DNA of 63,648 nucleotides, the filler included, from Collodictyon triciliatum (lineage: Eukaryota), in NCBI GenBank assembly GCA_043381765.1. It is 4 parts of 4 records of this genome, joined end to end, with 100 filler letters (N's around TTAATTAATTAA, not from the genome) between each part and the next. Parts side by side here need not be neighbours in the genome. Positions count along the whole stretch, not along the records: positions 1 to 20,694 come from JBHJMP010000103.1; 3 more parts are not named here. One strand, written 5' to 3'. Under the pieces are notes generated by a model, which was not told where the DNA came from, ran no database searches, and saw only the letters and a list, made by a program, of their open reading frames with translations. Both the position numbers and the translations under genes were made by a program. Of the stretch, positions 1,016 through 53,100 are shown piece by piece (within the stretch, counting starts at the first letter, position 1; each line of letters starts with the position of its first letter).

Positions 1016-1705
1016 TTAGGCGTTGCTGTAGTTGGCTCCTCCGACCTTCTTGACGCGCTGCATCAGGTCCTCCTCGACGAGCTCTTCACGCTTAGTGATG
1101 AGAAGCTCCAGAGCGAAGGACTGTGATACATAAGCAGAGAGGCGTCAATGACAAGTCAAGGTGGCCTAAACGAAGATAGACAGGAGGGGAATAGAAGGCA
1201 CGAGAGGGAACTGTGTGGTGCTGAGTGGGACTTCTGGCTACCTTGATAACAGTCTTGACTTCGTTCTTCTGGATGCTGACGCGGGCCTTCTTCATGACGG
1301 GGGCGTTGTCTCCAACCCAGGTCATGAACACAAACTTTGCGCGCTTGCTCTGTTCATCACCAGACACTACGCGGAGGAAACCGAACTGGACCTGATCATC
1401 CTGGAACTGGGAGCGCAGCTCGTCCAGACCACCATTTCCCTTGTTTGTGCAGACGATCGAGTTTCCGTCATAGCCAAAGACAGCCCTACGGTAAGACAAG
1501 GTCAATGGTGCTTTGTTGCGGACACGAAGCCATCTGGTGCAAAACTGTGTCAGTTTAGAAACGCTACAAGAAGAAATGATGATATTCCAGATATTCGAAT
1601 GGGCTTCGTTAGTAGCTCCACTAATGAGTTGTACCAGTTGGTTTCAGAGGAGTCGTTGCGGACATCCTCGTAGACGGGACCAATTTGAGAAACGTCAAGG
1701 GACAT
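1016..1705 (-). CDS. COTL1: Coactosin (ADF-H actin-binding protein), 3 exons
   Basis: Spliced: MSLDVSQIGPVYEDVRNDSSETNW|AVFGYDGN..LRVVSGDEQSKRAKFVFMTWVG..KKARVS..VIK|SFALELL..RVKKVGGANYSNA*. GT-AG introns; coactosin motifs SKRxKF and GGANY. Confidence 0.92.
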
Positions 1706-8890: not shown

Positions 8891-9138
8891 CGATAAATAA
8901 TAACAATAATACAAATTTAATACTTCAGCCAATTATCCTTTATTATTTTCCTCTTTTTTTCGATAATATGAGTCGTTGATTAAAACGAAAGAAAAAGCAG
9001 AGCAAGAGAACCCAACAGTTTGGTGAATATGGTTGGGAATTCAGCCCCGTTGTTGCTGACTATTGGCGCGTTTGCTATTGGGAAATGACCCGAGCCCGCC
9101 TCTTCTGGGGAATCGTATCGGCGCCTTCTTTCCATGTT

Positions 9139-10510
9139 CTATGGAGAATCATTTCGTCGCCTTCTTTCCGGCGAGCGTCTATTTTCTGGAGAATCATTTC
9201 GTCGTCTCCGTTCTGGTGAGCGTCTTCTCTCCGGCGAATCATATCGGCGCCTTCTCTCTTTGTTCTCTGGAGAATCATTTCGTCGTCTTCTTTCCGGCGA
9301 GCGTCTATTTTCTGGAGAATCATTTCGCCGTCTTCTTTCCGGCGAGCGTCTATTTTCTGGAGAATCATTTCGTCGTCTCCGTTCTGGCGAGTGCCCTTCT
9401 TTGGTGCTTTCTAAAGAATGACGAACACTCACTCGTTCGACACTCGCAGCACCAGACGGTTTCACATAAGAGGAATTGTGTTTTTCACTCTCGTATGATT
9501 CACTTGAATCGCTGCTGGCATCAGAGGACTGGCCACCAGACTCGCTTTTCATTTGCTTCTCTATTTTTCTCTGAGCCTTTCTCAGACGCTTTTCTTCCTT
9601 TTTCTTCCTTTTCTTTTCTTTTTTCTCTTGTTTCTTTTTCTCTTTTTCCAAGTATTCCTAAGATAAAATGGTAAAAAAAATAATTAATTAACAGTAATAA
9701 AACAAAAAAGTGAAAAAAAAATACGCATCGAACGGGGGTCACACCTGGTCCTTTGTAGGAGGGAAATATATTTCAGTAAAGTGTTGGTATAATTACCTTT
9801 GCAGGGTCTTCATCCTCAAGTTCTTCAAGATGCGAGTCTGGAACTATTCATTGTGGAAGATACAAAAAAATGAGAGAAAGTTATGGCAGTATCAATCATA
9901 TTATGACATGATTGCTTAATGATTTTTTTATTTTTACTCTTGACAGGATTGCTTAATGATCATAACAGAATGAATAAAGTACCCGGGGACGCTTTATCGT
10001 GAGGCCATCTCTTGGGTTCTTCTCCGACCGTCTTCACAGGGTTGAATGTTTCGATGACATTTCCTTCCTTTAAAGTAAGGAGAAATAAATAAAAAGAAAA
10101 TAATATTCACAAAAGTTGAAGAGGGAGCTAGAGACAAAATTATGTATAGGATCTAAGTCTAGCACATAGAGGAGAAAGGACCTCATCCGTTGGGGGGCGA
10201 TAATCCCGTACGTGGTCCACTCTGATAGTCTTTTTCAGAACCTGATTGTGTAATGTTAAAAATATGTGCCCATCGATTGGCTCGACATTACAGTAATATG
10301 CAAAACGAAAGCGATAAGATAAAAAACAAAACACAGTAAAAAAAAGTAGAAAGGAATAAGGCAATAGAGGAAAGACGAACACTGATTCCGTTTAGATTTG
10401 TCACTGCAAGAACGCAGCTTCTGGGGTCTTCATAGGCGATAAATGCAAAGCCGCGGGGCTTTCCCGTTTCTTTGTCTCGAACTAGATTTAGGTCATGGAT
10501 TTCGCCATAC
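9139..10510 (-). CDS. RBMX2: RBMX2/Ist3 (RES complex RRM protein), 5' exons missing
   Basis: YGEIHDLNLVRDKETGKPRGFAFIAYEDPRSCVLAVTNLNGI|VLKKTIRVDHV is the RBMX2/Snu17 RRM. K-rich and R/D/S/P-repeat tail. Confidence 0.9.
9910..9960 (-). mobile_element. 23-bp A-tailed insertion (family C) with 14-bp TSD
   Basis: GATTGCTTAATGAT (9910-9923, 9947-9960) flanks the reverse complement of CTGTCAAGAGTAAAAATAAAAAA. Confidence 0.65.
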
Positions 10511-10717
10511 CTGCACAAGAAAGTCGCGGGTTTTGGGTCATAAAAGGATGAATAATGAAGGAAAAACAAAACAAAAGAAAAAAGAAAAAAGAAAAAAGNN
10601 NNNNNNNNNNNNNNNNNNNNNNNNNNNNNNNNNNNNNNNNNNNNNNNNNNNNNNNNNAAAAAAGAAAAAAGAAAGAAAATATAGAAAACACTACTAACAT
10701 CGTGATATGCCCCTTAG

Positions 10718-13700
10718 ACTAGGAATACAGAGCAGAAGCAAATTCCATACTCTATGCAAGAAAAACTCCACTATTTTTCGGGGAGAGAGAGTGAAATACA
10801 ACAAATGCGCAATTTGGTAAGCTGTATTCTTTTGTAGAAATGCTTCCCTCATAGGATTCATGACTATAAAAATTAGATTTATGAAAATATCGAATATAGA
10901 TTGATATCCAGAAAGCTGTGGAGCATGGGCCAATTATAATCGAGGGGAAGAAGGGTTCTTGATTAAAACTAATTTATATTCATATTTAAAGAAATACAGT
11001 AGCATTAACAATTCTGTCTTGATTTAGTATTACTGCATATATGCTCCTATTTATACTTTCTTGTAATTTTTCAGGGGCTGGAAAGTCATCTTTGATGGCA
11101 AAAATAATGGAGGAAATTTGCAATCCCGTTGGGGAAGAGGCTGAAACTGAAGCCATCATGGTTTATCATTTTCTAACCTTACGAACTCGAGGCCAGACGA
11201 TTGAAAAGTGCTTATTGTATCTAATAATGAGTGAATATCAATATTTGTCTCTTTATTTCTACTTTTGTATCTCTAAAAGTAATATTTTTCTCGCAGGGTT
11301 ATAGACGTACTTTATCAGAAGACCAAACAAGTGCTAAAGTCGATGAATCCTACAATCCATATCAGCGATAAAAGTACTTTTTTTTTTTATAGCTATTTAT
11401 TATTCTTTTTTATGCCCTTACGCTATATTAAATTGTTATTGCGCCGCATGGTAAAGATTTTGTGAATCTAACCTCCTAATAAGTCGATTGCAGCCGACCT
11501 GATGCATTTTTCAGATTGATAGCACTGGTGCGCACCGAACAATTTCAGTAGGACTTTCTTTAAATAAAAATCTTACGATAACACTTATTTCACTGAATTA
11601 TTCTTTAATCTAAATATCTTGAATGCATTTTGAAGTTATTATGTACTTTTTCTTTAAAACATAAATTCATCACTAGAAATATGCCATTTTACATGCTCAT
11701 CGATGGTGTGGAGTACATTACTCCACGAGACGAGCAGGATAATCCGTTGGATATGAAGTGGCTTCCCATCATATTGCCCCCAAACGTCTTTTTAATTGTG
11801 ACGAACCCAAATGCAAGACCTCTGGCCGATGATATTCATGTATTATCATCTATATTCTAATTTTCTATGAAATATCAAACTATATCCCTCAATTATATTA
11901 ACAAATTCTTCAGCAAATCCAGCTCCATCATCGAGTGCTTTCTGTCGAGAATTTAAGTATCGAGGACACTCAAGCTATTGCATCCAAATTCTTTTTCAAT
12001 TTCTCGCCTCTTGTGTTCGACTCTTTCATGACCCTCATGGATGCCCATTATCTTGGTACCTTTTTTATTTTTTAAAAAAAAAGTCAAGTCAATCAAGTAT
12101 TTCTATTTAAATCTTAGCTTTAATTTGATTACTACATAATAATTTATTTCTTATGCGACAAAATAATTTAAAGAAATATGCCAAAAAAAAAAAAACGGCC
12201 GATATCACATACGTGATAGAAGAAGAGTACCTCACTACCACCATTCAACTCCTTCAATATCCTTCAATTTTTGATACAACTTAACTCAGTTTTGGCGGAT
12301 CCAATCTACCTGAGACTATTTCTGGGTGAAATTTCGAGATGGAGACATCAAACTGATATACTTACGAGAGCAAATGAGCTACTTGAATATAAAACTACAG
12401 ACTTACTCATGCAAAAGATTATCGAGGATTGGAGATCAGATTTTGGTATTTTACATAGAGAAGAAACATAAACGATGCTCGTGCTTTTATCAACTTAATG
12501 CTTTTCATATTGACCCTAATCCATTAAAAATGTTGTAGATACAGAAATAGTAGACATGATTTTATCATTTCTCTCAATATCGAAGAATGGGTTATCCGAA
12601 GACTATCTATGCCAATACCTGGAAAGGAAATTTGGGAGAAGATACAGACAGACGAATTCGTAATATCACTATTGATGCTATTGCTTCTTCTATTATACTA
12701 TCAATAGTCATATACACATTTATTTACATGATTAATGCATCTTTAGTCACAACTTTCTTCAAGTAATATCGGTCATATGTCTCTCTTTATACGAGGAAAA
12801 GTAAAGCCATCACATTGATCTGTACAAATCACTCAAATCAATAATATGTTTTTTTTTCAAAGTTGAATGGTGTAAATATATCTTTTTTCTTTGCAGGTTT
12901 GTATTCATGAATGACAGTGTGAAGCAAATAGCACAAAATATCTACTTGACAGAGAAAAAAGAAGAGGCTATTTTGGGCTACACAGAATACCTCCAAGGGC
13001 GACAGAGAACTGTGAAAGACGTCTTGGAAATCGATGTGGACGAAATTTGTCACGCGTATTGCGTGGGTATGATGCATGCTAAACTATCAAAGTATTTGAG
13101 CAATCCAGAGGTGAGCAATTCTATATTCGGCTGCCGGATAAAAATAAATAAATTACATGTTCATTCTATTTTACTCTATTGAAGGTGTTTTCTCTATCTC
13201 TTTGATTCAATAGCGCTTCTTTCGAGTTAAATAAAAAATTAAACCTGTCCAGGTTGTGGAGAAACTTTTATCCGGTGAATACAGGCAAACATTTTATGAT
13301 TGTTGGGATTTGTTGCGAAAGCATGGATATGGATTCAGAAGTGTTCACGGAAGTGTTATCGATGTAATCCTTAAATTAATAATATCAGAGTGACAGGGTT
13401 TGGTCGAATTCCCTCTTATTTCAAAATTTTCATTACTAGAAACCAGAAAAAGTTACTCATCTTTTGATGGAGTATTTAAAAGAAGTACGAGAATACAATA
13501 TTTTGTTATCATCAACAAGAACAAGGCTATCTAGGAAAAGAAAATATAGTAAAAAAAATCATACATTTGAGATATTCCACTAAATTTGCAGATTCGATAC
13601 AACTTTGTAATTTTTCAAAAATAAACATGAAATTCTGATCAACTTATAATTAGCCTCTAGAATTGACGATTTGCTTCTCCTTTGGTGGATGTTAACGGTA

Positions 13701-16700
13701 ACTGGCAGGTTTTATTTTGTATTCATGATTACATAATACCCATTTATCTCTCTTGTTTCTAGTAGGACACGTAGCAGTTTATCATTCTATTACTTTCCCC
13801 TTGAATCAATTAAATCAAGAAAAANNNNNNNNNNNNNNNNNNNNNNNNNNNNNNNNNNNNNNNNNNNNNNNNNNNNNNNNNNNNNNNNNNNNNNNNNNNN
13901 NNNNNNNNNNNNNNNNNNNNNNNTTTTTAACTCTTTCTTCTTTCATCCATTCGTATTCAACAGGCGGTGTGCTAATAAGACATCCATTCTAACTTCTTTT
14001 TCTCCTTCAGGAGCCCAGCAGCTGACACTCAACTCCACGTATATTTGGAGCTATTGGAAGCAAAGAACGACGAAATTCTAACTCTTGTCGAAGCATATGA
14101 TTACTTAGCAGATGTCCTTAGCAGTACCAAGAAGTATCATCTGTTCTTAATTTCCGCCCGACATGTGCCTAACTTACCACTGACTCATTTTTAGGTATCA
14201 AGAAGCGATTGATTTTTACAAGAAATCAATAGAATTGAGAATATCTCGTTATGGAGAGAACGACCCACTTTTGGCTCTATCATACGAGAAAATTGCGTTC
14301 ATATACACAGAATTCGGCTCGTATGTTCCTCTTGAATCGAATTTGCTTCTGCCCTAATCACAACGTTTTTTTTTTTAATTAATTAAAACCAAAAATACTC
14401 ATCTTTCTCAGAGCATATGACGTATATGAGTATCACCTTCGAAGTTACAATGTCAGACTACACGTGCAGAATGACGATGTCTATGGAATATCATGCTCAA
14501 GACAAAATGTCGGAATATCGTTATTGCAACTGGAGAAGTAATAGTGATATCTAAAGCAATATTCACTGTCCCTTTCACAATAATATTTTCTTTTTCTCTT
14601 TAGTGCTGAGCCTTCTTGTTATCTGCATGGAATGATTTTGCAAAATTAAGGGCCCTAACTAATGAAAAATGAACATTTCGTATTTAAATTATGCACCTAT
14701 TGTGCATAGATGAATATGAAGCTGTAGCACTTAAACAAATACTACATCTAAACAAACATACAGACCATCAGAGGCACTTTTTTATCTGGAGTCATGCTTG
14801 TTGGGGAGAGTTAGAATATTTGGAGAGTTAAATCCAGAAACAACGATGGCTTATTATAATGTTGGGAAGGCGTATGAATGCATGGGAAAGTAGGCACCCT
14901 TATTGCGATAAAAAAAATACTGCAGGCTTCATTTACATACTGAGACAAAACTAGGACTTGCGTTTTGGATTACCATCCATGTCGATTTCTTATTCTTGAA
15001 AAATCGTTCGTTTATACTAATTGAGGTCTTCCTTTGATTTAGAACATCTGAGGCAATTGAATACTACGAGAAATGTTTGAATCGCCGGAGAAGTTGTCTT
15101 GGGGCTGACCATCCAAGTGCCAATTCTGTCTTGAGGAGAATCGGTGATTTATATGAAAAGATGGGAAAGTAAAATCTACTTTACTAATTCTATAAATCAA
15201 ATTATGAAGAAACAGTGAGCTATTTCTGCTGTCTGTGTCTTTCTATTCTTGAAATTTTTTCCTTTGTTAATTTTAAATTCAGTTTCTCCTCTTTCTGCCA
15301 ATAACATACAATCAGGTTATCTATGTCATCAAGGGCCTATCAAGAGATTATCGAAATATACAAGCCCAGAGAAGAGAACAGGAAAATTAGGACAGTGCCA
15401 ACGCTGTTTGAGCTAGGATGTGTTCTTAAGCAACAGGAACGGTAATGAGAGCCCTCAAAACATTTTTAATACCGTGGAAAGCAAATTACCTACTTGACAT
15501 ATTAACTGCGAACGTATTGTTTTAAAAAAAAGTGATGCATCTGAACAATGAGCAGAAGATAATGTTATTTTTATTTATAAAGGGAATTTTGAGATTTATA
15601 TTGAAACTCTTTGAATTGAATAAAGGGGAAAAAAGAGGTTTATATTGGAACTAAAAACGTTTATACTTATTTCTCTTTTTTCTCTCTCTTTTTTTTTTTT
15701 TGTTATCAAGGTACGAGGATGCACAAAAATATTATCTAGAGGCCTTTGAGATTGCACAGGCAGAAGACATCGAATACATCAACTATGCAGCCGCTCGGTT
15801 CGATTTGGGAGACATATACTATGCTCTGGGCAGGTTTGTATAATCAGGATAAATCAAGGAAATTATTTTACACATCTGGCTCGGTGTAAAATCGAGTCAA
15901 TATTTTTAGAAGGAGGTTTGGTAATGTGCAATATTTAACAGAATTGACGAAGCTATATTGGAGTATAAACAGAGTTTAGAGTTAAGAGAGAATGGCTCAT
16001 ATGGTGATGTCCTAGGAATTGCTGTGCTTCGTTGTCACTTGGCAGATATTTACTGCGAAAATGATCAGTAATACTAGTGTATATGCAGTTTTATGCAAAT
16101 GTTGAGGCTGAATAGTCTCATACAAAAGTCTAATTCCTACTAAATATGTTTGAATATTACTCAGTGATAATCTCCAAACTTCAGACTAGGTGATGCGCTA
16201 GGACTTTATCTAAAAGTTTTGGAAACATATACTCAATACCAAGGGCAATTACATGAGAATGTTGCGTTCGCCCTAGAGAAAATAGGAGAAATTCAGTTCA
16301 AAACAAAAAAGTGAAGCTTTATATCATTAATATTCTCGATTCACCCAGCTCCCGCTCTTCAATTTTTAAATTTCGTTGAACTAACGTGCATCATCTATGA
16401 CAACACCAGCTTCTCAGCATCACTAGTAAGGTTCAAAAGGGCTATGAAGATAAGGGTGCATAATAATGGGCGAGACCACCACGGACTTGCGCGTCCATAC
16501 CATATGATAGGCATGATTTACAACATACTGAACAAGTGGGTTTACATGTACATGATATATACGTCTGAGTCAAATAAAGTTGCCGGAAAAAATGGCTTAT
16601 GCAAATCCCATACTTTTAGAGTTTAAAATTAAAATTAAAAGTAAAACATAATTAACTCGGAAATAACTCATGTAAGGAAAATAGTGTAAAGGAAATAGAC

Positions 16701-19131
16701 CATGATATAAATCTTATTTACCAATCCTTTATTCACAAGATTACTTAAATTAGCAACGAAAAGGCTATCAAATATTTTGACAAATATCTCCAATTGATGG
16801 AAGTTCTCCAAGGTACTGACGAGCAAATATACGACACTTATTACACCTTAGGTACTCTGTACTGGAGAGAAGGAAAGTAAGTTGAAAAAATATGCTTTAT
16901 AAAGGAATTATTGGAGAAAAATTTACTCGTTTATCAAAAAATGATGATTCATATGCCATTATAAGCGGGAATATTCTCTAATAGCTATAATTTAAATGGA
17001 TACAAGTTTCGACAGGGCGACGCATTACCTGGAAACATTACTTTCAAGACACCAGGAGGTAAAAGGATTTTCTCATCCGGATACAGGGGAAATCTTAATT
17101 CTACTGGCGCGCAGTTTACAAGAGCGTGGCAGGTTTTTGTTGATGAGTATTGATTTTTGCTGCCTATTTGAAGTGAAAGTTCCATCAATATTTATTTCAG
17201 AACAAGCCTGAAGTAAAGTTTTTGTCTGCCATATTGATGGCGCTCTCAACTAGAAAATGTCTAATGTTGACTTTACAATCTTAGATTTGAGGAAGCCATC
17301 ACACATTACGAAAAATTATTTGAAATAAGTTGGGATTCTGAGCAAAACAAGGAGAATGTAGCAAAAATTAAATACAATATGGGGCTGTGCTTTTTAAATT
17401 TGCAAAAGTGAGCAGAATGATATCTTTTATCCTTGAATTTTATATTGTAACAACAAATGTTTATCTGGATACAGTTTTACAATTTGATGATGATATTCTA
17501 TTTTTGTCACTATTCTTTTTCACGGCTTTTCATTATTCGAAAAGTTTTTGGAATCTTTTATAGTTAAGATTTCATAAATTTCTTATAGCCATCAAACTTG
17601 AAGGTTTTCTAAGATTTCCTTTTCCTTCTTTCACATTTTACAACCACATACACTATTCTGTTTCTCTTCCTCGTTGCAAAACAGGCTTGAATCGGCATTG
17701 GAGCAATTTACAGATACCCAAGACCTACAAACACAAGCGTTCGAAGAAGATGGTTCAGAAAGCTTTCATTTCTGGGAAATTTCTCTTCACATAGGCTGCA
17801 TTCTATATGAATTAGAGAAGTACGTATTACAATAATAGAATAGATCAAATAGCAGATTTCATGATGCATAGGTAGTGGCCAGGGAGCTCTGTTGGCATAA
17901 AATGAACAAACACCATTTCTAGGTATGCCCCTGCCGTTCAAAGTCTTGAAAAGGCTCTAGAGATACACGAAGGTGATTGGGAAGGACATACAAGGCAATA
18001 TATCAACCTAAAATTGGTATTGGCACGCACTTTAGTCCGCATGCTTAAGTAAAGTTTAATGCATTTTTGTAATTGGATTGATTTTCATTAAAATCTGTCG
18101 CTCGTAAAGAGCGATAGGTTTTGGAGAATGAAAGTGTTTTTTTTCCATATTTTTTTATTTACCTCCCGATTTTACCTTTTTTTTTTCTTCTTCTTTTTAT
18201 GGGTGTCCATATTGTCAGTTTAACTTCTCGGGACATAAGAAACGAGGATTTTTGAAATGTAGAACTGGCATCAAATGCTAATCTACGTTTTTTTTTTTTT
18301 TTTTTTGGTCTTGGGGGTTGCGTAGTTACGACTTATCCCTGGAAGCATATGGATGTGCGGTCGGCAAATTGAAAGAGGACGACGAGTCTCAACTGCTCGA
18401 GTTGGCTGTTGTCCACCGTGAGATGGGTTTAGTCTATATCTTCAAAGGAGAGTAAGTTTTGAATAGGCTGCAACCGTCGCCGAAAAATTGGTTTTTTTTA
18501 AAAAAAGAGATAAATAGTGTATTTAAACTGCCTATACCCCAAAAAAAACATCATGAGCACGAAGGAGAAAAAAAAGCCTTTCTCCCTTTCTTTTATTATC
18601 GACTGAAAAATTTATATAATTCTACAAAAATAAATAAACAAAGAAACAAACAAACAAACAAAAATATTTAACATGAACAAATAGCGCGCACACATAACAC
18701 ATTCCAATCTAACACGATTTAGACTGGAGCTGGCTGCGTTGCACCTAGAAAAATCACTCAGCATCCAGAAGGAAGTCCACCAAACCTGGACGGTCGATAT
18801 GCTCAAGGCACTGAACGATGCCGCAGTGGTGTACCAGAAGGCTGGGCAGGGCAAGCTGGCCATCGAGCGGTTGATGCAGGCATACTCCATTACCAAGGCA
18901 CACTTTCCCAAGGGCGATGCACGGACTGAAGCGGCTGAGGCCAAGCTCAAGACCGCTCGCTTGATACTGCAGGATGGCGAAGTTGCGGTTCGCACAGTCG
19001 CCCAAGTGCCGGTTGCCCAAGAGCCGAGTATTCAAGAACCGGCTGCCGAAGAGCCGGTCATCCCAGAGCCAGCCGTTGAAGAGCCGCTCGCTGAAGACCC
19101 AGCCACCAAGCCCGCATGCGTTGTCTCGTAA
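10718..19131 (+). CDS. STAND-class (NACHT/NPHP3-like) NTPase + ~17 TPR repeats + C-terminal CaaX; 5' end probably missing
   Basis: YFSGRESEIQQM; spliced Walker A IIIEGKK|GAGKSSL; Walker B FYMLIDGVE; WLPIILPPNVFLIVT; ADPIYLRLFL; then 42-aa TPR exons (e.g. YQEAIDFYKKSIELRISRYGENDPLLALSYEKIAFIY); ends KPACVVS*. Confidence 0.88.
15591..15652 (+). mobile_element. Micro-insertion family A with 18-bp TSD (2 mismatches)
   Basis: GAGATTTATATTGAAACT / GAGGTTTATATTGGAACT flank CTTTGAATTGAATAAAGGGG(A)6. Confidence 0.8.
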
Positions 19132-19169
19132 TCGATGCACATCCCATTCCAAAGTGGAGGGGAAAAGAT

Positions 19170-19257
19170 TGAAAAGAATGAAAAGAATGAAAATGAAAAG
19201 AATGAAAAGAATGAAAAGAATGAAAAGAATGGAAAGAATGGAAAGAATGGAAAGAAT
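19170..19257. repeat. (GAAAAGAAT)n repeat downstream of the TPR gene
   Basis: Visible tandem repeat. Confidence 0.85.
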
Positions 19258-19624
19258 AAACTGACGATAAGCCAGCAGTAAAATAATCGTCAGAAACCAG
19301 CCAACAAACCGCACATATCTCCGGTGGGCATCCAAGCCCATCTGCCAGAGTGCACTCTGTTCCCTCGGTGGCTGTCTGTGGTCTGTGGCGGGATACTAAA
19401 AGCACACACGCGGGCGGCATTCGCTGTTCGAGGCCGGTACTGAGAAACTCAGGTGCGAAGGACGTTTGTGTGCGGCTCAGAAAGCAGCCATCTGTCTCTC
19501 TGTGTCTCTGTCTGTCGAAAAATCAATCAGAATCAGAGGGCGGCCAACGCGCCAAACTTCAGCTGACTCACACTCGCTCACTAACACAATCCAGCCGCAA
19601 ACATCCAACTCGCCAGCCGCAGCC

Positions 19625-20794: not shown

Positions 20795-21294
20795 GAGTCG
20801 TGATGTGTTCATGGGAATCACCAATCGTTTTTTCTTTCTCTTTCACTTTCCGTCTCTCTCGTTTTCTTTTTCTTTTTCTTTCTCTTTCTTCCCAGGGCTC
20901 GAAAGCAGCGGAGGCAAGCAAACTCTCTCCCTTTCCCCTCTCACTATCGAATCGAAACCAAATAAAAATGCACGAGACACGGTAGCATCAGCGAAACAGA
21001 TATTTGAAGCCTTGAGTGAATTTGGGTATCCATCGATTATATAACACATTTTTTTTTAAATCTTTTCTATATGTTTATTTTTCTTCAATGGGAATAAAAG
21101 ATATGAACTGGTTGCATAGGGAAATACTGATATCCTAATTCAAAGGGAAAATACTGACTTCTACTTCAATAATTAAACAAAAAATGAAAAAGAAAAAGGA
21201 AAGACAACGCAATCTCGAAAAGGCAATCACAAAGGAATAAAAAAAAAAAGTTTTCGCGGGGGCTTGAGATGACAGTGGGCACAATTACTGAGCC

Positions 21295-24200
21295 TCAAAA
21301 AGGGTATATGCGCGACTCCAAGAAAAGTTTCAAGGTATTCAATTCCTCTGATACAAAGAAGTCTGCGTCTGGTATGATGTCCCTGCATTAAGTGGTGGGT
21401 TCAATTATACTTGATATACGTCACAGTTTTCGAAGGTATTCCTTCATACCTGTTTGCAACCAGTTCCTCATAACGCGGGGAGTGCTGTCTTATCAGCAAG
21501 GAGGCGAGCATCATTTCCATAGTATTCCCGGTTTGTTTTGCTATATTATATGCTCTACAGATGTTTGAATTAAAAGAGAAAAAAAGAGAGAAAAAAGAGA
21601 AAAAAAGGGAAAAAGAGAAAAAAAAGGACTTCTTGGGTGGTCGTGTGAAGAGCAATACATACTTAATGAAGCAAGAGGATGCCATCCCAGCATTTTTCGA
21701 GTGCAGGGACAGACAACCACGGTATCTCCAGACAATCCCATCTTTGCCTCTAGAGGAGGAACTAGACAACAATCTATTTATCAAAATCGATATAGTTTCT
21801 ACATCCTGACTATCGTTTGTATTTGGGTGCTTCAAGTCCTCTAGAATGGCATTCAGGACGCGATTCCATTCCGAATGAGGTGAATATCGGGCTACCAGAC
21901 GAATCACCCTGCCTTGGACTTCTGATCGTGATTCTGGTGTGCTGGAAAGATAACACAATAAACTGTAGAGGCATGATGCGTAAGCAAGGAGCAGTAGTGG
22001 CGAATTTGAAGACATTTTCATTATGGAATCTACGGTCTGTGTATATTTAACATTGCAATGGGGTGTTTTTTGTTAATAAATATTTAAGATGGGATTTGTA
22101 TTATTAACAATTCAGATAAGTGACTTTTTCTTTCAAATATGCTAGAAATAAAAATTTAAGACGATTAGAAATGAACTCACCAGCCTAGCAAAGAAAGGGT
22201 GACCGATGAGCGAAGAAAAGCAGCCAAGAAGAATGATTGTGTTGAGGTCGTATAGCGCGCTTGCTTGACTCAGCATTTTATCCGTTACATAGCCCCTAAG
22301 CCTGAGGACACATTTTGTTTTAATAAAAAGGCTAAAAACAAAAAACAAAAAACAAAAAACAAAAAACAAAAAACAAAAAACAAAAAACAAAAAACAAAAA
22401 ACAAAAAACAAAAAACAAAAAACAAAAAACAAAAAAACAAAAAAACAAAACAAAAAAAAACAATCAAATCATACATGTCCAAAATTTTCCCGTTTTCACC
22501 TATACCCAGACGCAAATGTATTGTGGCTATTTGACATGTTGTGATCATGTGCTGCTTCTTGTCTCCAAATTTTAGAGAATACCGATGCAAGTCTTGAATA
22601 AATTGCCGCACCGCAGACAAATCCAATACGTAAAATAAGTTGTACCCCTGTATCATCATCAACTGGAACTAAAAGTAGGCGTACGATATCTAACGTAAGG
22701 AATAAGACAACCATCCTGTACAACAAATGTGCCGCTCTACACATAATTCAATAGATTGGGCATATATATTTTGATATACGTGAGTATGGAAGTCTGAAGC
22801 AGCTTGTGCATATGCCAGGGCTGCATTACATATCGTCAGTCCTTTCGAGAATTCATATTTGTACATGTGGATATATGTTATCTTCTGAAGAGCTTTGGCA
22901 GCATCGGAGTATAGCAAAACCCTATCATTGAGAACATAGTGTAACCCTACTTAATAAATTAATTCAAGAGACAATCATGGATAAACTATTAGAAAATATT
23001 GATAGAAACTGTAAATGGACCTTCCTGATTCCTCTATCTGCTTAAGAACAGCTGAGACACGGTCTTGATGGATGCTGTATGTTACAGCACAATTGTGTAT
23101 CAACATAAAGTGATGGAATTATTACTTTACGGTATTATGATATTAAACTCATTTCTTGATTGATTATGCAATAACACAATAATTTTCTTACGATGATATC
23201 TTTTCATTTCGGAATGAGGAATGGATCAATCCCAGCAAAGCAGAAAGTCTTGCCACGGTACCCAAAAGTTTCAACTCTTCGCACAGTTCCATACCAGAAT
23301 ATGCGCAAACCAACGCATCTTTTATTCTTGACTGTCGAAAGTATATATCAGCGAGTGATTCATAGCACCTTGCACACACAAGCCGATACATTTGGATGGC
23401 GTCTTCATCTTCGAGCGAGGGATTGTTTCGGTCTATCCGAACAGATTCGGAGCGAACTCGTGTGGGCGTAGATAAAGCAAAACGAGACAAGCGCCTTTTG
23501 GATATTACATCAGATGACTCTTGAGACCCAATCGGGTGGAAATTACCAGACCGCCTGTCATTTGCATGTCCTCTTCCGTAAAAATTAGTTGTGACTGCTA
23601 GCCAAGTATCCCTCCACAAGGCGCGTACGACAAAAGGGAATGAGCTTAATTTAAACGTGGATGCTCTTGAATTTGATATCTCCAGACATTCGTTTAGGAA
23701 TCTATGTGACAGAGCAGCAAGAATAAATAAAAATCATTAAGGTTGACTTACGAACATTTCCAGAGAATTTTTATGGATAACTGAGGGTGAAATATTCACT
23801 ACAAACTATTTGAAATTACTTGGATGATTGCGTAAAATCTCCTCGGAGCTTACAACATTCTCCAAGATTAAATTTGCATAATACATCTAAAATTTTATCT
23901 TCCGATAGATTTTCTTGATTAATCAGACTATTTGCCTGGTGGAAACACTAGATTGCATTGTTAAGCGTTAAGAAATATTGCCAGCCTAGGAGTCATGCTT
24001 GAGACAAACTGAGTAGAGATATATAAATATATAGGTAAAATTTTGGGGTTTTTTCTATCAGAATAATATACTCTGATAGCTTCATCCAAGTTGTGTAAAT
24101 TGAGAGCGTCTTCCCCAGATAGCATATAGTATTCTATTGCATTTTTACAATCAGATTTTTATTCCTTCATACACAATTTTATTTTATATAAGACAATTAA

Positions 24201-51219: not shown

Positions 51220-53100
51220 AATCTTTAGGTAGAATAAATAAAAAACGAAACAAAAAAGACAAAAAACTGAGATACAACGGTTTAATTCTGAATTAGTCAG
51301 TATTCCCAAATGCATCAGATTGTGAACAGTTTACAAAGCACAACAAACTGTTCATATAAATAGTCCTATGTAAATCGCTATTTAATCAAATGAAAGGGCA
51401 GATTTTACTTGTTTCTCCTATTTTTCTATTGGAGGCGCCCGCACGCATGATATCGAACACATCCTTTTCGCAGCTTGCATATACTTCCGTAGCTCCATCA
51501 ACCCAAATACCTCGCTCTTTTTCTTCCCTAACTTGTAAGTTTGCCTTTGTGTCTGCATAAGAAAATGTAGTTTGTACGTTGGCGAGGGCAGTGACAGAAG
51601 TGTATGATGTCCTTTTTCAAGAAAATAATCAGAGACGAGAAAACAAATGGACAGATATTTGTTCTCTCCGATGACTGAAAAGAAACTGAGAAGAATGGGA
51701 ATGCGGTGTGTAGGGCGGTACTTGACATACGGTCAAGAAGGTCTCGGATCTTTTCCTGGTAGATTTCCAGATAGCTCACTTTCACAGTAAACTCGATGTT
51801 TGAATCAGCACCGGAAACCCCGTCAAAGATTGTCTTGACCATCCGAGGAATGACCCCGCGGTTGGTGATGTCGTCTATGCCCGGCCCTTCCATGGTGTGT
51901 GTCTTGCCGCTGGACGTCTGGCCGTAGGCAAAGACGGTTCCGTTGTACCCTTTGAGGACATCTGCGAAGAAGGGTTAGCTTTCCAAAAATATGACGGGCG
52001 GCTCCCATCCATCAAGCGACCAATATGTGGCGTGGAGTGGGGTTGGCAAGTAGAATACATTTGCATAGGACTCAAATAAATTAGATAGGATGTATAAAAG
52101 GAAATCGTATGTATGTCATAGAGTCAGTAGTTCAGTATAGTGGGCATCTAGGATGTAATTTTCCTGGGTGAACTCTCCGGGAGAAAAGAAGGGAAGAATG
52201 GCTCCACAAAAGAGAGTGTGTTGAAGGAATGACATCATAAATGTTGATTGGATTATTCTTATTCTTATTTGGCATTTTTCTCTGTGTTCTCAACAACCAA
52301 ATGAAAATGAAAATGAAAATGAAAATGAAAATGAAAATGAAAATGAAAATGAAAATGAAAATGAAAATGAAAATGAAAATGAAAATGAAAATGTAAAGCG
52401 AGGTTGCGTCAAATAAGCCCATGCTGTCGGCATTCAGGGGCCGTCTCGCTGTTTACAAGGAAGAGACAGCAATCATAAGGGTGGGTCTATTTTTAAGAAA
52501 ACGGATTACCCTCGACGATAGGCCTGGCTGCATAGTCGTATATCTCAGCCTGTGATGTTGTGGGAGGAAAGACTCTATCGAAGGTAAACTTCATGTTTGT
52601 GTCGCTGCCCTGAAAAAAATCACTTTTTTGTTACATTTGCTCATTGGATTGTCACGGAAGGGGAAAGATCATAGATATATTTCTAGATTCTGCACATGAA
52701 TGTCCATGACGGACTCTACAGAATCCAAAGATGTATAATTTTATGAATAGGATACAATGATTATTGTTAGAATGAACTCGCCTTAATGGCGACAGTTGCA
52801 ATGTCCGGGAAGTCAACAACAACCTTTGCTCCTTTGCTGTCTTCAATCTGGGCAGTGAGAAAAAAAGGGGAAAGAGTGCAGCGAGAAGGGGCGAGTGTTT
52901 GTGCGTGTTTGCGTCAGATCTCCTGGCAAGAGCTTTAATTTAAAAAGAGAGAGAAAAGAGGGAGAAAAAGAGGGAGAAAAAGAGAGAGAAAAAGAGAGAG
53001 AAAAAGAGAGAGAAAAAGAGAGAGAAAAAGATCTTTTAAAGCATAGAACCTTGTTTTGGGGACGGAATCTGCATACAACGCGAATGGAAGCGTCTGCCAT
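46420..53100 (-). CDS. KIF5: Kinesin-1 heavy chain
   Basis: [67 protein letters not shown]; coiled-coil stalk; tail [12 protein letters not shown] (IAK motif). Confidence 0.96.
52300..52393. repeat. (GAAAAT)n intronic microsatellite
   Basis: Visible tandem repeat. Confidence 0.9.

What the first reader, a model, noticed from the sequence alone, without database searches (positions are those of the whole stretch)
14011..18451. NLR-like STAND-TPR gene built one repeat per exon (16 symmetric phase-2 exons)
Seen: exons 14011-14133, 14195-14320, 14412-14537, 14764-14889, 15043-15168, 15316-15441, 15711-15833, 15942-16067, 16185-16310, 16410-16535, 16754-16876, 17007-17132, 17285-17407, 17685-17819, 17923-18048 and 18326-18451. 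Eleven are 126 nt, four are 123 nt and one is 135 nt. All are bounded by phase-2 introns at the equivalent G-K/R codon of a 42-aa TPR, so any exon can be skipped, duplicated or swapped without frameshift. The NTPase exons have mixed phases and lengths. Known: STAND NTPase plus repeat sensor is the NLR architecture, and exon-per-repeat TPR/LRR arrays with shuffling were reported for candidate immune receptors in the brown alga Ectocarpus. Inference: a modular, diversifiable receptor system in this protist. The repeats here are highly diverged from one another, so shuffling may be old or occur between paralogues.
Basis: partly seen in the sequence, partly recalled or inferred. Interest (0 to 1): 0.82.

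Follow-up and report, generated by a model that had tools for sequence, protein, structure and literature searches.

The report
One-TPR-unit-per-exon NACHT-like switch gene
This is a real, expressed gene for an ATP-switch protein whose 17-repeat sensor arm is built almost exactly one repeat unit per exon, but the repeats are very old and diverged, so it looks like a fossil of ancient exon duplication, not an actively shuffling immune receptor.

Summary
All 16 listed exons have AG/GT borders and lengths of 123, 126 or 135 nt. All lie between phase-2 introns, and one frame stays open. Spliced RNA contigs confirm 11 of the 16 introns in the TPR array and 7 of 14 upstream.

The full model has 31 exons (10754-19131, 1311 aa). 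It encodes a P-loop NTPase, 17 kinesin-light-chain-type TPR units and a C-terminal CVVS motif.

The spliced NTPase aligns collinearly with a bacterial NACHT-TPR family (hhalign 74.8%; 0 of 200 shuffles reach the score). No Pfam NACHT or NB-ARC hit could be obtained, because only single exons can be sent to the tools.

The "diversifiable receptor" reading is not supported:
- Repeats are 15.6% identical on average, 36.6% at most.
- There is no DNA self-similarity.
- The window holds no orphan exons and no paralogue.
- Every RNA joint shown links neighbouring exons.

The whole genome was not available, so distant paralogues remain untested. The closest known case is the Ectocarpus NB-ARC-TPR family with 126-nt TPR exons. 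The scan's earlier notes hold no case of this exon layout. Moderate interest.

The parts
10754..19131 (+). Whole gene model: 31 exons, 1311 codons plus TAA
   Evidence: Open spliced frame, 0 internal stops. 18 of 30 introns are supported by spliced RNA contigs. Exon GC is 0.28-0.59 against intron GC 0.22-0.41.
10754..13708 (+). 14 NTPase-module exons: 10754-10816, 10912-10954, 11075-11216, 11297-11373, 11484-11547, 11677-11839, 11914-12055, 12290-12445, 12539-12659, 12747-12800, 12897-13110, 13253-13363, 13440-13548, 13654-13708
   Evidence: frames, GT/AG borders. RNA joints 11839>11914, 12445>12539, 12659>12747, 12800>12897, 13110>13253, 13363>13440 and 13548>13654. The five 5' introns, the intron 12056-12289 and the 11216 donor choice rest on frame and splice signals only.
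10945..11088 (+). Walker A (GKKGAGKS, residues 33-40), split by a phase-1 intron
   Evidence: Aligned with high confidence to the P-loop of the NACHT-TPR family.
11687..11821 (+). Walker B strand (FYMLIDGVE) and the following strand (FLIVTNPNARP)
   Evidence: hhalign pairs them with the family consensus 'pVRLlvDGLDqL' and 'hV~LvvTsR'. Coordinates.
12550..12636 (+). Winged-helix-like segment, residues 288-316
   Evidence: Best-scoring hhalign segment against columns 264-305 of the NACHT-TPR family.
13825..13923 (.). Run of 99 N inside the intron 13709-14010
   Evidence: A further phase-2 exon could be hidden here. The direct join 13708>14011 keeps the frame.
14011..18451 (+).
   Evidence: Including the final exon's unit, 7 of 17 single-exon peptides hit TPR_12 at E<=0.01. 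Register. 11 of 16 array introns are RNA-confirmed. Exon 1 is a weak TPR (19 bits to the self-built HMM). Exon 16 has no RNA cover.
18723..19131 (+). Final exon: TPR unit 17, Pro/Glu-rich tail, CVVS, stop
   Evidence: TPR_12 E 0.0018. RNA contigs cover 18723-19193. GC is 0.587. The join 18451>18723 was not shown by RNA.
19012..19101 (+). Pro/Glu-rich linker with a 15-nt tandem repeat that varies in length between strains
   Evidence: TRF finds period 15, 2.7 copies, at 19065-19104. Run X1 has a 15-nt in-frame deletion at 19000.
19117..19128 (+). C-terminal CVVS (Cys, two aliphatic residues, Ser), a CaaX-type prenylation signal
   Evidence: for the sequence. That this pattern is a farnesylation signal is established knowledge recalled here; it was not tested.

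Best explanation
This is one expressed gene of an AT-rich, intron-rich eukaryote whose lineage I did not determine. It encodes a 1311-residue STAND-type ATP switch with three parts: a NACHT-like nucleotide-binding module (P-loop, Walker B, helical domain, winged helix), a solenoid of 17 kinesin-light-chain-type 42-residue TPR units, and a flexible Pro/Glu tail ending in a CaaX box.

Origin of the layout. The array was built long ago by tandem duplication of a unit made of one 126-nt exon and its intron. The break lies in the turn between TPR helices A and B. The intron positions have been kept since, while the repeats diverged almost to the limit of recognition. The symmetric phase-2 layout is therefore a fossil of how the array grew. 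It is not a sign of current shuffling.

Likely mechanism (inferred from the STAND family; nothing here shows it). The protein is farnesylated and sits on a membrane. The TPR arm holds the NTPase closed. A protein or peptide ligand bound in the TPR groove permits nucleotide exchange and oligomerisation. There is no N-terminal effector domain, so the output must go through recruited partners. I cannot decide whether the ligand is microbial (immune-type sensor, about one third) or endogenous (scaffold or signalling).
For: Shown:
- Exon borders, phases and open frame.
- Spliced RNA for 18 of 30 introns. All 15 joints shown link neighbouring exons, in two coded organisms.
- TPR_12 identity with the same register in every exon that hits.
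- Mean repeat identity 15.6%, maximum 36.6%, no trend with distance along the array.
- No DNA-level repeats across 13924-19200.
- A self-built repeat HMM finds the 17 exons and nothing else in the window; the next best hit has E 0.47.
- No paralogue in the window by tblastn or phmmer.
- Differences between strains are mostly silent. In the NTPase part, 5 of 5 exonic differences are synonymous. In the TPR part, 7 are synonymous against 6 non-synonymous sites in 5 codons.
- hhalign of the spliced NTPase against 41 NACHT/NPHP3_N-bearing bacterial proteins gives score 44.2, probability 74.8% and E 2.6e-5. It is collinear over residues 5-417, with Walker A, Walker B, the following strand and the winged helix paired. 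0 of 200 shuffles reach that score; their maximum is 20.5.
- The language-model atlas placed the Walker-B exon near an NPHP3_N cluster at 0.80. This is a lead only.

From print: repeat arrays that do shuffle in fungal NLRs are about 85% identical internally (PMC4986451, passages read).
Against: - The NACHT assignment rests on one profile comparison at 75% probability.
- Pfam gave no NACHT, NPHP3_N or NB-ARC hit on any of 7 NTPase exons at E<=1.
- No relative of an NTPase exon was found in 5.8 billion proteins (Walker-B exon) or in 1.84 billion representatives (71-aa exon).
- The whole genome is not held, so paralogues elsewhere and exchange with them are untested.
- The TPR part carries more amino-acid differences between strains than the NTPase part (6 sites against 0). 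This fits relaxed or diversifying selection, though the numbers are small.
- Contigs drop rare isoforms, so exon skipping is not excluded.
- Exon 16, the 5' exons and the join across the N run have no RNA support.
- Farnesylation and every functional step are inferred.
Confidence: 0.62

Rival explanations
1. [quoted passage not shown]
For: - All 16 exons are symmetric and a multiple of 3 long, so any could be dropped or doubled in frame.
- The exon size, 126 nt, is the same as in Ectocarpus.
- Between strains, amino-acid differences are found only in the TPR part: 6 sites against 0 in the NTPase part.
- The genome outside the window was not searched.
Against: - Repeats are 15.6% identical on average, with no recent duplicates.
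- There is no DNA similarity between units.
- The introns hold no inactivated TPR exons, unlike Ectocarpus (against PMC3341825 section 16).
- There is no second copy in 63.6 kb.
- None of the 15 RNA joints shown skips an exon. Exon order is the same in organism B for exons 7-9 and 10-12.
- Most of the 18 exonic strain differences are synonymous: 12 sites against 6.
Confidence: 0.12
2. A housekeeping scaffold related to nephrocystin-3 or kinesin-light-chain-like proteins: a lipid-anchored TPR platform in trafficking or cilia, not a sensor at all.
For: - The TPR units are of the kinesin-light-chain type (TPR_12 and TPR_10).
- One exon gives a weak TPR_NPHP3 hit at E 0.0037.
- The atlas lead points to NPHP3_N at 0.80.
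- The repeats are old and diverged, the gene appears single-copy within the window, and splicing looks constitutive.
- A lipid anchor is present.
Against: - The TPR_NPHP3 score of 17 bits is far below the 100-bit cut-off.
- The protein starts MQ, so it has no N-terminal Gly for myristoylation, and it has no long N-terminal region.
- No orthologue was detected with single exons in very large libraries. That is unexpected for a conserved housekeeping gene, although single exons are weak probes.
Confidence: 0.18
3. The gene model is partly wrong. The GC-rich final exon would belong to a separate transcript, or exons would be hidden in the N run, so the protein is not as described.
For: - The final exon has GC 0.587 against 0.28-0.49 in the others.
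- Its RNA depth is 25-30 against 3-7 upstream.
- A contig starts exactly at 18723 after letters that look like a cDNA adaptor (the adaptor identity is recalled).
- No joint 18451>18723 is shown, and depth over exon 16 is 0.
- A run of 99 N lies in the intron 13709-14010.
Against: - 18723 is preceded by AG, and it continues the phase-2 frame into a 17th TPR unit that fits the repeat alignment.
- The two letters before 18723 in that contig (GA) equal the last two letters of exon 16.
- A 3' bias in depth is usual in oligo-dT cDNA (recalled).
Confidence: 0.08

Closest known systems
Ectocarpus NB-ARC-TPR genes with repetitive TPR exons (Zambounis et al. 2012, PMC3341825; sections 11, 16, 18, 19 and 26 read)
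   Same: A STAND NTPase is followed by a TPR array in which each 42-residue unit sits on its own 126-nt exon, so exons can be gained or lost in frame.
   Different: - There the NTPase is NB-ARC. Here it aligns better with a NACHT-type family (74.8% against 11.9%, with unequal reference sets).
- There the genes form a family of 24 with pseudogenes, inactivated exons in introns and local exon duplications. Here none of these is seen in the window.
- I could not compare intron phase or register, because no Ectocarpus sequence was at hand.
Fungal and bacterial NLR-like proteins with highly internally conserved TPR, ANK or WD repeats (Dyrka et al. 2014, PMC4986451, passages read)
   Same: A NACHT or NB-ARC module with kinesin-light-chain-type TPR sensor repeats.
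   Different: Those repeats are at least 85% identical to one another, vary in number between isolates and are not split by introns. Here identity averages 15.6% and each unit is a separate exon.
Actinobacterial NACHT-TPR proteins (P0052, P0036 and 39 relatives; PF05729 and PF24883 plus TPR_12)
   Same: The domain order is the same, and the alignment is collinear over P-loop, Walker B, the following strand and winged helix.
   Different: - Sequence identity is about 20% over 308 columns.
- A family HMM gives only 5.1 bits. That is the same range as true NB-ARC proteins used as controls.
- The bacterial proteins have about 290 residues in front of the NTPase. This protein has 21.
Nephrocystin-3 (Pfam NPHP3_N, TPR_NPHP3)
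   Same: A lipid-anchored P-loop protein with C-terminal kinesin-light-chain-type TPRs. There are weak leads.
   Different: No hit reaches a Pfam cut-off. The anchor signal is a C-terminal CaaX, not an N-terminal myristoylation site (the NPHP3 lipidation is recalled). There is no long N-terminal region.

Membership tests
STAND NTPase, NACHT clade | Walker A GxxxxGK[ST] | tested here: met
   GKKGAGKS at residues 33-40, split by an intron. Paired with the family P-loop at the highest confidence.
STAND NTPase, NACHT clade | Walker B strand ending in D, followed by G-x-acidic | tested here: met
   FYMLIDGVE is aligned to the family consensus 'RLlvDGLDqL'.
STAND NTPase, NACHT clade | Helical domain and winged helix at a fixed distance after the P-loop | tested here: met
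   Residues 288-328 align to family columns 264-305. The whole alignment is collinear over 5-417, probability 74.8%, E 2.6e-5, and 0 of 200 shuffles reach the score. Moderate strength.
STAND NTPase, NACHT clade | Hit to Pfam NACHT (PF05729) or NPHP3_N (PF24883) above the cut-off | tested here: inconclusive
   No hit at E<=1 on 7 single NTPase exons. The domain is split over 6 or more exons, and the spliced protein cannot be sent to the tool. A family HMM built here gave 5.1 bits, but genuine NB-ARC controls scored 2-9 bits, so that test had no power.
STAND NTPase, NACHT clade | C-terminal superstructure-forming repeats | tested here: met
   17 TPR units. 7 of 17 hit TPR_12 at E<=0.01 as single 40-42-residue peptides.
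NLR in the strict tripartite sense | N-terminal effector or adaptor domain | tested here: not met
   Only 21 residues precede the strand leading into the P-loop. An in-frame stop lies upstream of the ATG. The 5' end has no RNA cover.
Ectocarpus-type NB-ARC-TPR family | 42-aa, 126-nt TPR exons | tested here: met
   11 of 16 exons are 126 nt, 4 are 123 nt and 1 is 135 nt. Compare PMC3341825.
Ectocarpus-type NB-ARC-TPR family | NB-ARC domain | tested here: inconclusive
   No Pfam NB-ARC hit on single exons. hhalign against only 4 bacterial NB-ARC-TPR proteins gives probability 11.9%.
Ectocarpus-type NB-ARC-TPR family | Inactivated TPR exons in introns, local exon duplicates, gene clusters | tested here: not met
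   No extra TPR-like ORF in the window, best E 0.47. Maximum repeat identity 36.6%. No paralogue in 63.6 kb. Genome-wide clustering is not testable.
Shuffling NLR repeat arrays (high internal conservation) | Repeats at least about 85% identical within a gene | tested here: not met
   Mean 15.6%, maximum 36.6%. No DNA self-match.
Nephrocystin-3 | TPR_NPHP3 and NPHP3_N above the cut-off | tested here: inconclusive
   TPR_NPHP3 scores 17.1 bits against a 100-bit cut-off, on one exon only. The whole protein could not be scanned.
CaaX-prenylated proteins | Cys, aliphatic, aliphatic, X as the last four residues | tested here: met
   CVVS followed by TAA, unchanged in the RNA contig 19027-19193. The modification itself is not testable here.

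The most novel reading that the evidence does not exclude
The 16 symmetric exons are a working cassette system. The cell, or the lineage, makes many TPR sensors from this locus by in-frame exon skipping, or by exchange with paralogues elsewhere in the unseen genome. That would be a single-gene, splicing-based counterpart of what was proposed for brown algae, here in a farnesyl-anchored, effector-less NACHT-like protein with no detectable relatives.
Probability: 0.1. Interest if true: 0.8.

Novelty: new variant of a known kind. Interest (0 to 1): 0.4.

Why it matters
This is a clean, RNA-verified case of a STAND-TPR gene in which every repeat unit keeps its own exon, even though the repeats have diverged to about 16% identity. 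Until now that layout had been described mainly for Ectocarpus NB-ARC-TPR genes, where it was read as a sign of active exon shuffling.

Here the layout persists without any trace of recent shuffling. That shows symmetric one-repeat exons can be a long-lived relic of how the array grew. On their own they are weak evidence for a diversifying immune receptor.

The NTPase module is also an outlier, with no relative found using single exons in very large libraries. The CaaX tail suggests a membrane-tethered switch.

Tried and rejected
- Whole-genome search: no genome is held for this window.
- Protein searches with single exons:
  - Walker-B exon among longer proteins: 2 candidates, none scored.
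  - 71-aa exon against 1.84 billion representatives: 0 hits at E<=0.001.
  - PDB with three NTPase exons at E<=10: only chance matches.
  - Atlas with the 71-aa exon: nothing usable.
- Profile of the 17 repeats against 5.8 billion proteins: 64 generic TPR_12 proteins, namely rotifer ART-TPR and bacterial CHAT-, kinase- or STAND-TPR. None is similar to the NTPase part. One hit, P0030, is a read-through ORF call over exon 9, intron and exon 10 from a near-identical public contig.
- Metagenome contigs: two scans, no relative.
- Family HMM from 41 bacterial NACHT-TPR proteins: 5.1 bits, P-loop only, no better than the best of 1000 shuffles. Controls showed the test has no power across STAND clades.
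- Rfam on the whole window: nothing.
- RNA runs: no listed holder is on record as RNA. The contigs are nevertheless spliced. Parts without cover are 10660-10951 and 18252-18543. Run X3 laid nothing.
- Earlier notes of this scan: none for this genome and none with this exon layout.
- Lineage of the organism: not determined.
- Supplementary tables of PMC3341825 (exon lists, per-exon trees) could not be seen. They may hold the intron phases needed for a direct comparison.


Full report
**1. The observation**

Exon borders, lengths and frame:
- Lengths are 126 nt in 11 exons, 123 nt in 4 and 135 nt in 1.
- The joined exons have no stop in one frame and 39 stops in each of the other two.
- Every exon begins with one base that completes a codon started in the previous exon, so every intron is phase 2.
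- The exon before the array ends in phase 2 as well. All 16 exons are therefore symmetric and a multiple of three long.
- Given the first intron, fifteen more in the same phase would occur by chance about once in 14 million.
- The 14 upstream exons have mixed phases (0,1,2,1,2,0,1,1,2,2,0,0,1,2) and lengths of 43-214 nt.
- Exons are richer in G+C than introns: 0.28-0.59 against 0.22-0.41.

RNA evidence:
- One search for sequencing runs returned three coded runs from one study. They were labelled 'RNA? (a guess)'.
- Laid on 10660-19400, two of them gave contigs that skip GT..AG intervals exactly at the predicted borders.
- In the array, nine joints are listed: 14320>14412, 15833>15942, 16067>16185, 16310>16410, 16535>16754, 16876>17007, 17132>17285, 17407>17685 and 17819>17923.
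- 14537>14764 is shown by a 13-letter loose end. 15441>15711 is shown by adjacent pieces of one 1406-letter contig.
- That makes 11 of 16 introns in the array. Upstream, 7 of 14 are supported.
- All 15 joints listed link neighbouring exons. Four more joints were not shown to me.
- Organism B shows the same order for exons 7-9 and 10-12.
- One contig keeps the intron 15169-15315, and another is unspliced over 13930-14164. I read these as pre-mRNA.
- Exon 16 and its two introns have no cover.

**2. Two corrections to the description**

The 'G-K/R codon' is loose. The split codon encodes K or R in 9 of 16 exons. The residue before it is G in 7 of 16. Both hold in only 4 of 16.

The exon unit is a circular permutation of the textbook repeat. 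In every exon that matches Pfam, exon residues 1-3 fall on TPR_12 positions 19-21 and on TPR_1 positions 17-19. In exon 11 the last 14 residues fall on TPR_8 positions 2-15. Each exon therefore encodes helix B, the 8-residue linker and helix A of the next repeat. The intron sits in the turn between helices A and B. Dropping or doubling an exon would still keep the A/B alternation.

**3. The whole gene**

- Using frames, splice signals and the RNA joints, I built a 31-exon model running 10754-19131, 1311 codons with no internal stop.
- It starts at an ATG 36 nt after an in-frame stop. It lies head to head with an RRM-type gene on the other strand.
- Only 21 residues precede the strand that leads into the Walker A motif. 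That motif is itself split by a phase-1 intron.
- A 17th TPR unit lies on the last exon. It is followed by a Pro/Glu-rich tail and the last four residues CVVS.
- The tail contains a 15-nt tandem repeat. Run X1 has a 15-nt in-frame deletion there.
- A run of 99 N lies in the intron 13709-14010. It could hide another exon, although the direct join keeps the frame.

**4. What the NTPase is**

Single exons are poor probes:
- Pfam gave no NACHT, NPHP3_N or NB-ARC hit at E<=1 on 7 exons.
- PDB gave only chance matches.
- The word-indexed search found nothing for the Walker-B exon.
- A full HMMER pass over 1.84 billion representatives found nothing for the 71-residue exon.
- The language-model atlas placed the Walker-B exon near unnamed eukaryotic fragments (0.93) and an NPHP3_N cluster (0.80). 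These are leads only.

A local comparison of the spliced protein:
- The tools do not take a spliced protein, so I compared it locally.
- A profile of the 17 repeats had brought in bacterial STAND-TPR proteins. One of them, P0052, carries NACHT, NPHP3_N and nSTAND1 by hmmscan. It served to collect 41 relatives.
- A family HMM gave the spliced NTPase 5.1 bits on the P-loop only. This is no better than the best of 1000 shuffles.
- The same HMM gave genuine NB-ARC and NPHP3_N proteins only 2-14 bits, so that test has no power.
- hhalign against the 41-sequence alignment gave score 44.2, probability 74.8% and E 2.6e-5. None of 200 shuffles reached more than 20.5.
- At a low alignment threshold the match is collinear over residues 5-417 against columns 12-343. 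Four features are paired:
  - Walker A.
  - The Walker B strand, LIDGVE against DGLDqL.
  - The following strand, FLIVTNPNARP against LvvTsR.
  - The winged helix.
- Against four bacterial NB-ARC-TPR proteins the probability is 11.9%. That reference set is smaller, so the two figures are not on an equal footing.

I conclude that this is a STAND module and most likely NACHT-like. The strength of that conclusion is moderate.

**5. Is it a diversifying system?**

Every test I could run points the other way.
- The 17 units are 15.6% identical on average. The best pair (units 4 and 5) reaches 36.6%. There is no trend with distance along the array.
- There is no nucleotide similarity between exon-intron units.
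- A repeat HMM finds the 17 exons and nothing else in six frames of the window. The next hit has E 0.47. Ectocarpus NB-ARC-TPR introns, by contrast, hold inactivated TPR exons (PMC3341825 section 16).
- No paralogue of the repeats or of the NTPase lies in the 63.6-kb window.
- Of 18 exonic differences between the window and the RNA contigs, all 5 in the NTPase part are synonymous. In the TPR part, 7 are synonymous and 6 sites (5 codons) are not. This fits purifying selection that is looser on the TPR arm. The counts are too small for a test.
- In fungal NLRs, repeat arrays that do shuffle are about 85% identical internally and vary in number between isolates (PMC4986451, passages read). Earlier notes of this scan describe the same near-identity signature in bacterial and archaeal cases (unchecked notes).

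What remains open is the rest of the genome, which is not held, and rare isoforms, which contigs cannot show.

**6. Mechanism**

Shown: the gene is transcribed and spliced as modelled over most of its length.

Inferred from the family and from the motif:
- The CaaX box is farnesylated and tethers the protein to a membrane through a flexible tail of variable length.
- The TPR solenoid binds a protein or peptide ligand and controls nucleotide exchange and oligomerisation of the NACHT-like module.
- With no effector domain, the signal must pass to partners.

An earlier unchecked note of this scan describes a Naegleria NB-ARC-TPR protein that also ends in a lipid-anchor signal. If that holds, lipid-tailed STAND-TPR switches recur in protists.

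**7. Comparison and novelty**

- The nearest described case is the Ectocarpus NB-ARC-TPR family: 24 genes, 13 with repetitive TPR exons, and 124 exons of 126 nt.
- The layout is the same. The NTPase clade, the extreme divergence of the repeats, the lack of pseudo-exons, the missing N-terminal domain and the CaaX tail all differ.
- Full-text searches for 'NB-ARC-TPR' (20 papers), 'NACHT-TPR' (1 paper), NACHT with TPR, 'intron phase' and exon (1 paper), and tetratricopeptide with 'symmetric exons' or 'exon duplication' (10 papers) turned up no other description of one TPR unit per exon in a STAND gene. I saw listings and abstracts, plus passages of PMC4053784, PMC12909245 and the bioRxiv preprint 10.1101/2024.02.19.579948.
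- I rate it a new variant of a known kind.

**8. Verdict**

The interest is moderate. It lies in a well-documented example showing that symmetric one-repeat exons can outlast any shuffling.

Noticed in passing
window 21000-30000, minus strand: There may be a second large STAND-type gene on the other strand. By eye, ORF pieces look like class III cyclase motifs (about 29900-29170) and a degenerate P-loop with helical repeats. The only tool support is a weak AAA_16 hit (E 0.029) on 25992-26213. Eight other pieces gave no Pfam hit. It shows no similarity to the gene studied; the best hit has E 0.59.
   Followed up: partly
window 18723-19131: The final exon has GC 0.587, against 0.28-0.49 in the other 30 exons. 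Its RNA depth is 25-30 against 3-7 upstream. A contig begins exactly at 18723 after letters that look like a cDNA adaptor. This could be 3' bias or an internal transcript start.
   Followed up: partly
window 16197-16605 (P0030): A public 135-residue ORF call (P0030, from a 1202-base contig) reads from exon 9 through the 99-nt intron, which is open in frame, into exon 10 and beyond. It is a gene-caller artefact on a near-identical strain.
   Followed up: yes
window 15169-15315 and 13930-14164: One RNA contig retains the 147-nt intron between exons 5 and 6, which would give a stop at once. Another contig is unspliced across the exon 1 borders.
   Followed up: no
window 19000 and 19065-19104: Run X1 has a 15-nt in-frame deletion inside a 15-nt tandem repeat. 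This repeat encodes the Pro/Glu-rich tail before the CaaX box.
   Followed up: partly
window 9075-10530, minus strand: An RRM-type gene lies head to head with the studied gene. Its RNP-like motif is read by eye in ORF 10288-10713. It has an Arg/Ser/Pro-rich repeat region at 9139-9657. An N run at 10599-10657 lies between the two genes.
   Followed up: no
window 40791-42548: A GC-rich island (0.56 in 40001-42000) sits in an AT-rich window. On its minus strand are ORFs that by eye carry a MADS/SRF-type box and His/Gln-rich runs. It was not scanned against Pfam.
   Followed up: no
window 31273-31689: A reverse-transcriptase fragment: RVT_1, E 9.4e-9.
   Followed up: no
window 1092-1643 (-), 33737-34105 (+), 43591-45684 (+), 51528-51974 (-), 19626 onward (+): Ordinary neighbours. 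A cofilin/ADF domain (E 2.7e-19) and WD40 pieces are supported by Pfam. A kinesin motor P-loop and an isoleucyl-tRNA-synthetase-like start are read by eye.
   Followed up: partly
window 16754: Both RNA runs have T where the window has C at the first base of exon 11. The aligner reported this as a GT..GC joint with one letter between. The split codon stays Asn.
   Followed up: yes
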